Shown: positions 4,765 to 59,920 of the stretch, piece after piece
Numbering within the stretch: position 1 is the first letter of the stretch
Layout of the letters: every line of letters begins with the position of its first letter
Assembly: GCF_009914755.1 (NCBI RefSeq)
Contig: NC_060941.1
Origin: the human T2T-CHM13v2.0 reference genome, Homo sapiens
DNA length: 64,000 nt
Reading direction: 5' to 3' (one strand)
Notes under the pieces: generated by a model
What the model was told of the DNA's origin: nothing
Seen by the model: the letters and a program-made list of their open reading frames with translations, nothing else
Databases searched by the model: none
Position numbers and translations under genes: made by a program

Positions 4765-5645
<881 letters not shown>

Positions 5646-22559: not shown

Positions 22560-23110
22560 TCACCAAGCTCAATTAATTTCGATATCTCTTTGTGTTTCTA
22601 CCATTACTTCCACCCTTCTCCTTTTCACAAGTATCATGTCCTATGTGATTACTGCAACGGCCTCCTAACTGGTCTCCCTGCATCTGCTCTTTCCCCTTCC
22701 CACCCAATCTCGACATTGTAATGACCATCCTTCTTAAAACCTTTCAATAGCTCTCCTTTGCTCTTAGGATATAGACAAAACCACTTGCATGGCAGGGAAG
22801 ATCTTATATGGTCTTGCCTCCACTCAAAACTAGCTCAACTCAATCCCTTGTTCTCTGTTTTGGGGACACTGGCATTCTTGCAGTAACTTGTAATCCCCAA
22901 GCTCCTTCCCACGAGAGTCTCCATACACACTATTCCTCTCTTCTTCACCTGAGTAACTCTCTTCCCTTCCTCAGCTAAGCTTTCCCTGAACTCCCTGACT
23001 GGAACCTTCCTTGACATGTGTCACTTTTACAACTTTACATGTTTGAGAGATTAAATGATTAAAGTCTATCTTCCCTAATAGACCAAGGACCACTCACTTA
23101 GCACAAAATA
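22560..23110. mobile_element. L2 fragment
   Basis: ttactgcaacggcctcctaactggtctccctgc and cttaaaacctttcaatagctc L2 motifs. Confidence 0.65.
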
Positions 23111-23188: not shown

Positions 23189-26531
<3,343 letters not shown>

Positions 26532-46227: not shown

Positions 46228-47449
46228 TAGGATATTTATTGTTTAAACTTAAAGCATATCTTTATTTTTCAAAACAAAACTGTAAATTGTCATCTACAAA
46301 GATTATCTCTAGATACTTGTTTACTTTTAATGAGGGTAAAATATATTTCTTAGGTTTTTAATTACATAAGTCAGCATGATCCAGAGACATGTGAAAGAAG
46401 CCAAAAGAGAAAAGTCATCTTTAATTTCATTGCCCAGAAATACCACTCTTAACTCTGTATTTATCCTTGAAGCTTTTTCCTATGTGCATGTGTGTGCAAC
46501 AGGCTCTTCCTGTGCAGATTGTTTTATAACTTGTTTCTTCATTTAATACTATGTTGTAAACATTTCCCAATAATTTTTTTTTGCACCTAGCACTGATTCC
46601 CCATAATTTTTAATAATGGCATTATTATTCTATTCTTTGGACAAAATGTCCTTTATGTAATGAAAATGTTCTTATGGAAATGTTGTGCTTGTTTTGCTAT
46701 TACAAGTCGTGCCATTGCACTCCAGCCTGGGCAACGAGCGAAACTCTATCTCAAAAAAAAAAAAAAGAGTTTGTTATAGTTGAGTTTAGTGCTTAAAGAA
46801 TTCAGTCTTCAGTCTTTCTGGATATAGCCAGATGCCATCATAGCTGCATCCTGAGAATTCTGAGTATCTGAGTAATTCTTTTTTTTTTTGAGGTAGGGAG
46901 GCGGGGGGATGGAGTCTTACTCTGTCACCCATGCTGGAGTGCTGAAGTGCAGTGGTGCAATCTAGGCTCACTGCAACCTCCAGCTCCCCAGCTTAAGCAA
47001 TTCTCGTGCCTCAGCCCCCTGAGTAGGTGGGACTATGTGCCACCATGCCCAGCTAATTTTTGTATTCTTAGTAGAGAGACCGGGTTTCATCATGTTGGTC
47101 AGGCTGGTCTTGAACTCCTGACCTCAAGCAACTCCTGACCTCAAGTGATCTGCCTGCCTCAGCCTCCCAGAGTGCTGGGATTACAGGCATGAGCCATCAT
47201 CATGCCCGGCCTCTATCTGAGTAATTTATTGCAGACTACTAAAAGCATTTACACCAAATTCTTAATATAAAACTCTAAACTGGAGTTTTGAAAGATATTT
47301 TCAAATATTTTGAAAGATGTTTCACACCATGTCCTGTAAAATTACAGAAGTATCTTGGTGACTTTTTTGAGTTAAGCCATCCATCAGTATTTCTTTCTCT
47401 GGGGTAGTAGTTAACATGAATTTTAATCTTTGTTTTGCTTTGCTAATAA

Positions 47450-51276: not shown

Positions 51277-51369
<93 letters not shown>

Positions 51370-51550
51370 TAATAACTCCAGGTTGGAGAATTATTAGTAT
51401 CTCAGTATAACAAGTTCGTGTACACACAGAACTCGAAAATGGTATAGATGATGCGGATCAGAAGCTGTTCTCAGAAGGCTTTGGTCTGTGATTGGTTGAT
51501 TGGGAGAGGAATTCCCCACCTGCCTTACCTGTCTGTCTAGAAAGATTCAA

Positions 51551-52026
51551 ATCCTACTTATTTACAGATGGTCTAGATGTAATCTTGATAAAATCAAACC
51601 AACTTGACTTCTCCTAATTCAACATACACTCCTCAGACCTCTCTTCCTCACTCGTTTGTTTCAACTAATGTCACTGTGTAGAGAAGGAAACTACTTAATG
51701 TGTGATGGTTCCTTCCAGATGTATAGCTCATTTGTGTTGGCAGCTTGAATGGTTTTGGTTTTTTTATTTTGAAAACCAAAAAACTCTTGGTTTTTCATTA
51801 GGTTATTCAAGCCTAGCTCAGTCAGATTTGGTTCCCAGCTATAGTTCACTTGGCTAAAAATAAAGCCTTGAATTTGTACCGTCATCTTTTGAAACATTTG
51901 CTGTTTGACCTAATGTCAGTGACATTAGTTGAAACAAACGAGTGAGGAAGGAATGTTTGATGGGAGAAGTCAGGTTGGTTTGATTTTATCAAGTTTATTT
52001 CTAGGTCATCTGTAAATAGGTAGGAT
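51551..52026 (+). repeat. Long non-Alu inverted repeat in intron 14
   Basis: 51551-51615 pairs with 51962-52026; 51643-51676 is the exact reverse complement of 51917-51950. Confidence 0.95.
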
Positions 52027-52424
52027 ATAGGAAGGGTTGCTTTTTGTTTGTTTTATGAATAAGAGCTCTAAGGTGATAGGGCCTTCTCTAAAGCTGAAGT
52101 AATTTAACTATCATTCCAGTAAGACTGGACTATGGCGGCTACCAGCAGGGATTTGTCAGACAGTAAGACAAATGAAATTGAGAGGACATGACCTTCTGCA
52201 CAACGGAGGATCAGCTCACGTTTGTTCTGAATTGAGAAACAGGAGAAATGTTAAAATGTATTGCTGATGATTGGTACTGTCAATGTTTTTGTGTATAAAA
52301 TACATTTGGCATTCCCAAAATTAAAAAATATCAAGGGACTTAATTGATTTTAAAAAGAAAAGGTATAGTGTTCTGATTGGGAGATTTGGAATCAACTGAT
52401 CTTGAACTCTTACTCATTTCACAG

Positions 52425-52639: not shown

Positions 52640-53396
<757 letters not shown>

Positions 53397-58820: not shown

Positions 58821-59920
<1,100 letters not shown>

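What the first reader, a model, noticed from the sequence alone, without database searches (positions are those of the whole stretch)
51551..52026. Long non-Alu RNA fold-back in KPNB1 intron 14 with strand-specific G-U wobble signature
Seen: the outer stem 51551-51615/51962-52026 has 65 aligned positions without gaps (57 Watson-Crick, 6 G-U, 2 U-U, 0 A-C by hand count). After an asymmetric bulge comes a perfect 34-bp inner stem, 51643-51676/51917-51950. Neutral decay of a DNA inverted repeat should give G-U and A-C equally often, so 6:0 (about 1 in 64 by chance, ignoring ascertainment) favours pairing maintained in the sense pre-mRNA. I do not recognise the arms as Alu, MIR or L1, and the intron is Alu-free in an otherwise Alu-saturated gene. 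Inference: a functional ~100-bp dsRNA element, such as an ADAR substrate, a Microprocessor/endo-siRNA precursor, or a clamp that loops out cryptic processing signals.
Basis: partly seen in the sequence, partly recalled or inferred. Interest (0 to 1): 0.85.

Follow-up and report, generated by a model that had tools for sequence, protein, structure and literature searches.

The report
Single-copy inverted duplication in KPNB1 intron
A one-off inverted duplication inside an intron of the KPNB1 gene lets the unspliced RNA fold into a hairpin of about 110 base pairs, but nothing found here shows it is more than a neutral by-product of a DNA copying error.

Summary
The sense RNA folds at -213.6 kcal/mol, z = -17.6. 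It lies in intron 14 of NM_002265.6.

It does not look like a transposon. Both arms and the spacer are single-copy in T2T-CHM13. A neighbouring masked repeat, used as a control, gave 1804 candidates. There is no target-site duplication and no masked repeat of 100 nt or more.

The case for selection is weak. Over all 110 aligned positions the count is 8 G-U to 1 A-C. Other inverted pairs in transcribed DNA already give 52-56% G-U on the sense strand, so P is about 0.03-0.05 before allowing for ascertainment. The "Alu-free intron" is ordinary: 9 of 21 KPNB1 introns have no masked repeat.

Best reading: a local inverted duplication made by replication template switching, arms 11% diverged, now a generic intronic dsRNA. 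Cross-species conservation, RNA editing and in-cell pairing could not be tested. A second single-copy inverted repeat in KPNB1-DT shows the same sense-strand G-U excess, 5:1.

The parts
51551..51676 (+). Left arm (A), 126 nt. The outer stem half is 51551-51616, a left-arm-only 16-nt insertion lies at about 51617-51632, and the inner stem half is 51633-51676, of which 51643-51676 is perfectly paired.
51677..51901 (+). Spacer (S), 225 nt. It is single-copy in the genome, folds into small local hairpins, and contains an AATAAA hexamer at 51859-51864.
51902..51921 (+). Third, partial copy (A''). This is a direct repeat, 17 of 20 identical, of the last 20 nt of the left arm (51657-51676). It abuts and overlaps the start of the right arm, and forms a 17-nt-arm mini-palindrome 51902-51918/51920-51936 centred on 51919.
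   Evidence: D1, I3; 35-nt, 85.7% self-inverted match
51917..52026 (+). Right arm (A'), 110 nt, the reverse complement of the left arm. 98 of 110 aligned columns are identical.
51641..51641 (+). C51641, opposite A51952: the only A-C mismatch in the duplex.
51349..52424 (+). Host intron, 1076 nt (intron 14 of NM_002265.6). The fold-back starts 203 nt after the 5' splice site and ends 398 nt before exon 15.
   Evidence: annotation supplied with the finding

Best explanation
This is a single-copy, non-transposon inverted duplication of about 110-126 bp inside KPNB1 intron 14. It was most likely made in one replication template-switch event. It has since drifted roughly neutrally and carries no selected function.

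Proposed origin (inferred): the polymerase re-copied the last 17-20 nt of segment A forwards, turned onto the complementary strand, and copied all of A backwards. That inserted the block 51902-52026 downstream of a 225-nt stretch of ordinary intron.

Since then the arms have accumulated 12 substitutions in 110 positions and one 16-nt indel.

In the sense pre-mRNA the arms pair into an imperfect duplex of about 110 bp with a 34-bp perfect core and a 240-nt loop (shown by folding). Such a nuclear intronic dsRNA is expected to be bound and promiscuously A-to-I edited by ADARs, then removed and degraded with the intron (inferred from general knowledge, not shown here).

The excess of G-U over A-C is read as small-number noise on top of the transcription-associated sense-strand bias towards G and T.
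For: The structure is real and highly non-random.

Single copy in T2T-CHM13:
- The whole unit, the left arm and the spacer hit only themselves or the other arm. The arm search recovered the other arm at 79% identity, which shows the sensitivity reached.
- The 34-, 25- and 24-mers with up to 3 mismatches found the two arms plus 0, 1 and 3 other sites, against 0, 0 and 1 for the reversed controls. None of those 4 extra sites extends beyond 27 nt.
- A sequence-only model of the arms scored 128.7 and 109 bits on the arms. The next best hit was 26.5 bits. The 12 weak loci held no strong second copy (next best 9.3 bits), and the best one, L015, shows no fold-back.
- Positive control: a masked repeat 1.1 kb downstream gave 1804 candidates and 43 matches.

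No masked repeat of 100 nt or more lies between 50469 and 52635. No flanking direct repeat of 4 nt or more is present.

The three-copy anatomy A / A'' / A', with a palindrome centre at 51919, is what a forward-then-back copy of one template would leave.

Template switching is documented to create inverted repeats and whole hairpins de novo in primate genomes, with the derived miRNA loci mostly in sense-strand introns (PMC5453318 and PMC10710096, passages).

Neutral baseline for G-U share among transition mismatches: 0.52-0.56. Sense-strand G+T skew in KPNB1 introns, with the literature explanation in PMC2927911 (passages).

The duplex is imperfect in ways selection for pairing would not favour: a 16-nt one-sided insertion and 3 pyrimidine-pyrimidine mismatches.
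Against: 8 G-U: 1 A-C is nominally unusual (P 0.026-0.071).

The perfect 34-bp run sits exactly at the loop-proximal end. That placement has P = 0.009 if specified in advance, which it was not.

An independent single-copy inverted repeat in the window also shows sense-strand G-U excess, 5:1. The combined 13:2 exceeds the repeat-pair baselines (P 0.006-0.027, post hoc). A class-wide RNA-level or hairpin-specific effect is therefore not excluded.

The arms are longer (110-126 nt) than the short template-switch events described in the passages I read.

No outgroup sequence was available, so the direction of the event, its age and its neutrality are all inferred.

The repeat annotation at hand lists only masked stretches of 100 nt or more and gives no family names. 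A very old or very low-copy repeat family cannot be ruled out.
Confidence: 0.6

Rival explanations
1. The hairpin is a selected RNA element of the sense pre-mRNA, with pairing maintained by selection. It would act as a docking or editing site for dsRNA-binding proteins (ADAR, ILF3, STAU1, DHX9), as a splicing aid that brings the 5' splice site and branch region together, or as a clamp over signals in the spacer such as the AATAAA at 51859-51864.
For: Of the 12 mismatched positions, 8 are G-U, 1 is A-C and 3 are transversions. P(>=8 of 12 being G-U) is 0.018-0.076 for G-U shares of 0.33-0.42 among all mismatches. The sense fold is 22.5 kcal/mol more stable than the antisense fold. A CpG is retained in both arms of the perfect 34-bp core. 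Intronic long-range structures lying within a single intron are common, and a looping-out mechanism has been proposed for them (PMC10691357, PMC8052449, passages).
Against: The G-U excess is marginal against local baselines and was the reason the site was picked. The 16-nt one-sided insertion and 3 non-pairing mismatches are tolerated. A 1076-nt constitutive intron has no evident need for a bridge. One AATAAA is about what an AT-rich kilobase gives by chance (my estimate, not a call). KPNB1 is not mentioned in the main text of the three dsRNA/structure catalogue papers read, and no paper was found on this site.
Confidence: 0.12
2. The unit is a decayed non-autonomous DNA transposon (MITE or fold-back element), and the arms are its long terminal inverted repeats.
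For: The size (476 bp) lies within the 50-600 bp range quoted for MITEs (PMC11195612, passage). It has long inverted arms. The arm divergence of about 11% would fit the last wave of primate DNA-transposon activity, about 37 Mya (same passage). The inner arm ends read CAGTG outward, a motif I recall from some transposon termini, but here it is at the inner rather than the outer ends.
Against: No other copy was found in the genome by five kinds of search, while the control repeat was found in abundance. A family young enough to keep its arms 89% alike should have left recognisable relatives. There is no target-site duplication and no masked stretch of 100 nt or more.
Confidence: 0.08
3. The inverted repeat is much older than its 11% arm divergence suggests. 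The arms would be kept alike by recurrent intrachromosomal gene conversion or template switching between them, without any RNA-level function.
For: Template switching is described as converting near-perfect inverted repeats into perfect ones and as able to maintain hairpins (PMC5453318, passages; title and abstract listing of 10.1101/2021.04.15.439925). The mismatch-free 34 bp lie next to the loop.
Against: The run length is compatible with uniform decay (P = 0.11). Nothing here shows conversion tracts.
Confidence: 0.1

Closest known systems
Non-repetitive intramolecular long dsRNAs of the human transcriptome (dsRNAscan preprint, PMC11838218; passages read)
   Same: Both arms lie in non-repeat sequence of one transcript. 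The duplex has 34 contiguous bp, about 89% WC (96% with G-U), a 240-nt loop and a fold energy of -213.6 kcal/mol. The preprint's edited non-repetitive class has medians of 30 contiguous bp, 87.5% paired, a 509-nt loop and -184.8 kcal/mol. It counts about 497,000 such predicted dsRNAs, 4,597 of them edited on both arms.
   Different: I could not tell whether this locus is in their tables, because supplements are closed and KPNB1 occurs 0 times in the main text. Editing was not tested here.
Hairpins created by replication template switching (PMC5453318; PMC10710096; passages read)
   Same: It is a reverse-complement copy of nearby sequence that creates a hairpin at a stroke. [quoted passage not shown] It could be primate-age, judging from arm divergence.
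   Different: The arms of 110-126 nt and the 240-nt spacer are larger than the short events and miRNA-sized hairpins those papers treat. An extra forward-copied 17-20 nt implies more than the two switches of the four-point model. No ancestral state was seen here.
Inverted Alu pairs, the main human dsRNA/ADAR substrates
   Same: Intronic, intramolecular, imperfect long duplex. The same sense-strand G-U majority is seen in the repeat pairs of this gene (0.555).
   Different: The arms are not Alu or any dispersed repeat, and the duplex is about 110 bp rather than about 300 bp.
MITEs / fold-back DNA transposons
   Same: Size and long inverted arms.
   Different: Single copy, no target-site duplication, not masked.
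Conserved complementary regions and RIC-seq-supported intronic structures (PMC8052449; PMC10691357; passages read)
   Same: Complementary regions within one intron, far more stable than the -15 to -30 kcal/mol classes of those catalogues.
   Different: Those catalogues rest on vertebrate conservation or proximity-ligation reads, and neither could be checked for this site.

Membership tests
DNA transposon / MITE | Multiple dispersed copies of the arms or body in the genome | tested here: not met
   Searches find only the two arms. The control repeat gave 1804 candidates. Caveat: the searches score only the best candidates, and closed regions are not shown.
DNA transposon / MITE | Target-site duplication flanking the terminal inverted repeats | tested here: not met
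   No exact flanking direct repeat of 4 nt or more with the ends allowed to move by +/-6 nt. Only 2-3-nt matches were found.
DNA transposon / MITE | Terminal inverted repeats | tested here: met
   Arms of 126 and 110 nt, 98 of 110 aligned columns identical. This feature alone does not set it apart from any other inverted duplication.
DNA transposon / MITE | Match to a curated repeat family (Dfam/RepeatMasker) | not testable with these tools
   Only unnamed masked stretches of 100 nt or more are available. None lies between 50469 and 52635.
Alu inverted-repeat dsRNA | Both arms are Alu elements | tested here: not met
   The arms are unmasked and single-copy.
Non-repetitive intramolecular long dsRNA | Arms in non-repeat sequence of one transcript, with a long and largely contiguous duplex | tested here: met
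   Both arms lie in intron 14 on the sense strand. There are 34 contiguous bp, with 98 WC and 8 G-U of 110. Fold z = -17.6.
Non-repetitive intramolecular long dsRNA | Forms in cells (A-to-I editing on both arms, or duplex reads) | not testable with these tools
   No editing or RIC-seq/PARIS data are available. Paper searches found nothing for this site, and supplements are closed.
Template-switch-generated hairpin | One arm is a reverse-complement copy of adjacent sequence | tested here: met
   The extra forward copy and palindrome centre lie at 51902-51936.
Template-switch-generated hairpin | Outgroup or ancestral sequence lacks the copy, and a single event explains the change | not testable with these tools
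pri-miRNA / mirtron / known structured RNA | Match to a curated RNA family, or a stem of about 35 bp with a small terminal loop | tested here: not met
   Rfam at E <= 10 gave 4 matches, all below half their gathering scores (best 21.6 bits against 50). None is a miRNA. The inner stem closes a 240-nt spacer.
Conserved complementary regions (functional long-range RNA structure) | Conservation of both arms and compensatory substitutions across species | not testable with these tools
   No alignments are available. KPNB1 occurs 0 times in the main text of PMC8052449 and PMC10691357.

The most novel reading that the evidence does not exclude
Single-copy inverted repeats in transcribed DNA may carry a G-U over A-C excess on the sense strand beyond what transcription-coupled mutation gives. 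This would arise because pairing is seen at the RNA level (selection for intronic dsRNA), or because hairpin-forming DNA or RNA biases mutation towards A->G and C->T on the sense strand.

Two unrelated single-copy inverted repeats in this window lie in genes of opposite orientation. Each shows the excess on its own host's sense strand, 8:1 and 5:1, against 0.52-0.56 for dispersed-repeat pairs.

On this reading the KPNB1 hairpin would be one visible member of a constrained class of non-Alu intronic dsRNAs.
Probability: 0.1. Interest if true: 0.6.

Novelty: new member of a known kind. Interest (0 to 1): 0.25.

Why it matters
Taken at face value it matters little. It adds one well-characterised example to the large class of non-repeat intronic dsRNAs, with an unusually legible birth scar: a forward copy, a turn, then a back copy.

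It is useful as a caution. The G-U versus A-C strand test needs a transcription-aware null, which here is 0.52-0.56 rather than 0.5.

If the sense-strand G-U excess of single-copy inverted repeats held genome-wide, it would give a simple sequence-only handle on whether intronic dsRNA is seen by selection or by a hairpin-specific mutation process. With a 34-bp perfect core, the KPNB1 site would then be a convenient non-Alu substrate for ADAR and dsRNA-binding studies in a ubiquitously expressed gene.

Tried and rejected
Transposon origin: searched for in five ways and not found. The weak model hits of 26.5 bits or less were inspected and set aside as chance. They are AT-rich with about 55-60% identity by eye. 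None of the 12 loci has a strong second copy, and the best one, L015, shows no fold-back.

Insertion of the spacer into a perfect palindrome with a 20-nt target duplication: considered because of the direct repeat 51657-51676/51902-51921. Rejected as less likely, because the spacer has no source copy anywhere in the genome and no A-rich tail at either end.

Known RNA families: Rfam at E <= 10 gave only 4 sub-threshold matches.

pri-miRNA reading: rejected on architecture.

'Alu-free intron' as evidence: rejected.

Perfect inner stem as evidence of constraint: not significant (P = 0.11).

Literature: three searches for KPNB1 with inverted repeat/intron, A-to-I/editing, and editing sites/intronic/ADAR gave 7, 9 and 0 papers. 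From their titles and abstract openings, none is about this site. That it is not in print rests on these searches and on 0 occurrences of KPNB1 in the main texts of PMC11838218, PMC10691357 and PMC8052449. Their supplementary tables, which may list it, were closed.

Survey of more genes for a null distribution among single-copy inverted repeats: cut short. Only 20 pieces of 10 kb were obtained. They held a single unmasked inverted repeat, a 38-nt self-palindrome, so only the repeat-pair baseline could be extended.

The BLAST gapped alignment of the arms counts 5 G-U, 1 A-C, 4 transversions and 16 gap columns. The ungapped and MAFFT registers count 8, 1 and 3. The tally therefore depends on the alignment around the indel.

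The repeat-pair baselines come from overlapping, non-independent alignments. Each repeat copy takes part in many pairs. Rows shorter than 100 columns and the mirror-image duplicate of each pair were dropped before counting.

Age statements use substitution rates recalled from memory, not from a call.

Full report
OBSERVATION

The repeat finder reports two inverted pairs: 51551-51614/51963-52026 (64 nt, 89% complementary) and 51633-51676/51917-51960 (44 nt, 91%).

My position-by-position count reproduces the hand count exactly. The outer stem 51551-51615/51962-52026 has 57 Watson-Crick, 6 G-U, 2 U-U and 0 A-C of 65. The inner stem 51643-51676/51917-51950 has 34 of 34 Watson-Crick.

The inner stem continues outward for 10 more positions, which hold 6 WC, 2 G-U, 1 A-C (C51641/A51952) and 1 C-U. 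A MAFFT alignment of the left arm with the reverse complement of the right arm gives 98 identical of 110 aligned columns and one 16-nt insertion in the left arm. The full tally is 98 WC, 8 G-U, 1 A-C and 3 pyrimidine-pyrimidine.

As RNA, the sense strand folds at -213.6 kcal/mol. Shuffles average -113.2 with sd 5.7, so z = -17.6, and 0 of 100 shuffles fold as well. The antisense strand folds at -191.1 kcal/mol, z = -16.7. Both stems survive when the whole 1076-nt intron is folded, in the MFE and in the centroid. The intron is number 14 of NM_002265.6.

WHAT IT IS NOT

The RefSeq masking lists no repeat of 100 nt or more between 50469 and 52635. In the window's own genome:
- The 501-nt unit, the 126-nt left arm (E up to 10) and the 240-nt loop region 51677-51916 (E up to 10) matched only themselves or the other arm. 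The first look gave 1, 2 and 1 candidates, all scored.
- Mismatch-tolerant scans with up to 3 mismatches were run with a 34-mer, a 25-mer and a 24-mer. They found the two arms plus 0, 1 and 3 other sites. The reversed-pattern controls gave 0, 0 and 1.
- The 4 extra sites share nothing beyond 22-27 nt with the element.
- A sequence-only covariance model of the two arms scored them at 128.7 and 109 bits. Of 150 scored candidates, the next best reached 26.5 bits (E 0.018) and the rest 21 bits or less.
- None of those 12 loci holds a strong second copy; the next-best hit is 9.3 bits. The best locus, L015, has no fold-back.
- As a positive control, a masked repeat in the next intron (53140-53358) gave 1804 candidates and 43 matches at 79-100% identity, the 100% match being the query itself.

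No direct repeat of 4 nt or more flanks the unit, even with the ends allowed to move by +/-6 nt. Rfam gave four sub-threshold matches only.

A transposon family young enough to keep its arms 89% alike should have left recognisable relatives. I therefore set the transposon reading at low probability.

ANATOMY AND LIKELY ORIGIN

There are three copies of the inner end of the arm, not two. The last 20 nt of the left arm (51657-51676) recur as a direct repeat at 51902-51921, with 17 of 20 identical. This copy is immediately fused to the start of the right arm, so that 51902-51918 and 51920-51936 form a small palindrome centred on 51919.

The simplest single event that leaves A, then 225 nt of unique intron, then A'' joined to A', is a replication template switch. 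In it, about 17-20 nt of A are copied forwards, the polymerase turns onto the complementary strand, and all of A is copied backwards. The result is inserted at 51901/52027. This is inference.

The alternative is insertion of the spacer into a perfect palindrome with a 20-nt target duplication. It is less likely, because the spacer has no source copy in the genome and no A-rich tail.

Template switching is documented as a source of new inverted repeats and complete hairpins in primate genomes, with the derived miRNA loci mostly in sense-strand introns (PMC5453318 and PMC10710096, passages read). Those events are shorter than this one.

Arm divergence is 12 of 110 = 0.109, Jukes-Cantor 0.118, with a Poisson 95% range of 0.056-0.191. 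With primate substitution rates recalled from memory, this suggests an origin some tens of millions of years ago. Gene conversion between the arms would make this a lower bound.

THE G-U ARGUMENT

In a transcribed gene it does not.

KPNB1 introns are G+T-rich on the sense strand: (T-A)/(T+A) = +0.094 and (G-C)/(G+C) = +0.055. The literature ascribes such skew to an intronic excess of A->G over T->C on the non-template strand (PMC2927911, passages).

Empirical baselines:
- 237 other inverted-pair alignments of 100 columns or more inside KPNB1, mostly in masked repeats, give 3926 G-U: 3148 A-C = 0.555 on the sense strand. The 5th-95th percentile across 226 alignments with at least 10 transition mismatches is 0.37-0.71.
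- Outside CpG context the ratio is 3160:2459 = 0.562. In CpG context it is 766:689 = 0.526.
- In 10-kb pieces from other chr17 genes (20 pieces), 357 masked-repeat pair alignments give 6304:5786 = 0.521.
- These alignments overlap and are not independent.

Against such baselines, P(6 of 6) is 0.029 at a baseline of 0.555. P(>=8 of 9) is 0.026-0.071 for baselines of 0.52-0.60. A gapped BLAST alignment counts 5:1, so the tally depends on the register near the indel.

The perfect 34-bp run is expected in 11% of random placements of 12 mismatches among 110 positions. The 'Alu-free intron' is one of 9 such introns among 21. The evidence for selection is therefore suggestive at most.

A SECOND CASE

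A scan of the whole window for inverted matches outside masked repeats found four at E <= 0.001. Two of them are long and local: the KPNB1 hairpin and 22752-22855/24175-24278.

The second is also single-copy in the genome. It is 104 nt ungapped with 96 WC. It lies in an intron of KPNB1-DT, which is transcribed from the minus strand.

It has 5 A-C and 1 G-U read on the plus strand. That is 5 G-U: 1 A-C in its own sense RNA. On its own this is not significant (P 0.13-0.23). Pooled with the first case, 13:2 gives P 0.006-0.027, post hoc.

I tried to enlarge the sample. This remains an open lead.

HOW IT MOST LIKELY WORKS

Shown: the DNA is a single-copy inverted duplication. The sense transcript can form a duplex of about 110 bp with a 34-bp perfect core and a 240-nt loop.

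Inferred: it arose by template switching and has drifted. In the nucleus it behaves like other intronic dsRNAs, being bound and promiscuously edited by ADARs and discarded with the lariat.

Its dimensions match the edited non-repetitive dsRNA class of the dsRNAscan preprint. That class has medians of 30 contiguous bp, 87.5% paired, a 509-nt loop and -184.8 kcal/mol. 4,597 members are edited out of about 497,000 predicted (PMC11838218, passages).

Intronic structures confined to one intron are common and mostly not conserved (PMC10691357, passages). A-to-I sites are strongly enriched in the most stable conserved pairs (PMC8052449, passages).

None of these papers mentions KPNB1 in its main text, and their supplements were closed. 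Three literature searches found nothing on this site.

VERDICT

The functional inference is not supported by the evidence offered, though it is not excluded.

This is a new member of a known kind, and interest is low to moderate. The decisive data are cross-species alignment, editing and duplex reads, and a genome-wide G-U:A-C census of single-copy inverted repeats.

Noticed in passing
window 22752-22855 and 24175-24278: A second single-copy inverted repeat: 104 nt ungapped, 96 WC, arms 1319 nt apart, in an intron of the minus-strand lncRNA KPNB1-DT. Its transition mismatches are 5 A-C: 1 G-U on the plus strand, which is 5 G-U: 1 A-C in its host's sense RNA. This is the same direction of bias as the KPNB1 hairpin.
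   Followed up: partly
window 51902-51936: A mini-palindrome (17-nt arms, centre at 51919) made by a partial direct copy of the left arm's inner end fused to the right arm. In RNA it could compete with the top of the inner stem. I read it as the turning point of the duplication event.
   Followed up: partly
window 51859-51864: A canonical AATAAA hexamer in the spacer enclosed by the hairpin. No transcript end is annotated there, and one such hexamer per AT-rich kilobase is about the chance expectation (read; my estimate).
   Followed up: no
window 51752-51785: A small local hairpin in the spacer, made of a G/T-rich run and its A/C-rich complement around a short loop. It is seen in all the folds.
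   Followed up: no
window 5283-5323 / 59643-59684 and 46709-46763 / 59632-59686: Two short (42 and 56 nt) unmasked inverted matches that share a site near 59632-59686, in the last KPNB1 intron. They may be an unmasked fragment of a repeat.
   Followed up: no
KPNB1 introns, window 28069-60194: The sense strand is G+T-rich overall (T-A skew +0.094, G-C skew +0.055). The KPNB1-DT region shows almost no skew (-0.028 and -0.005 on the plus strand).
   Followed up: yes
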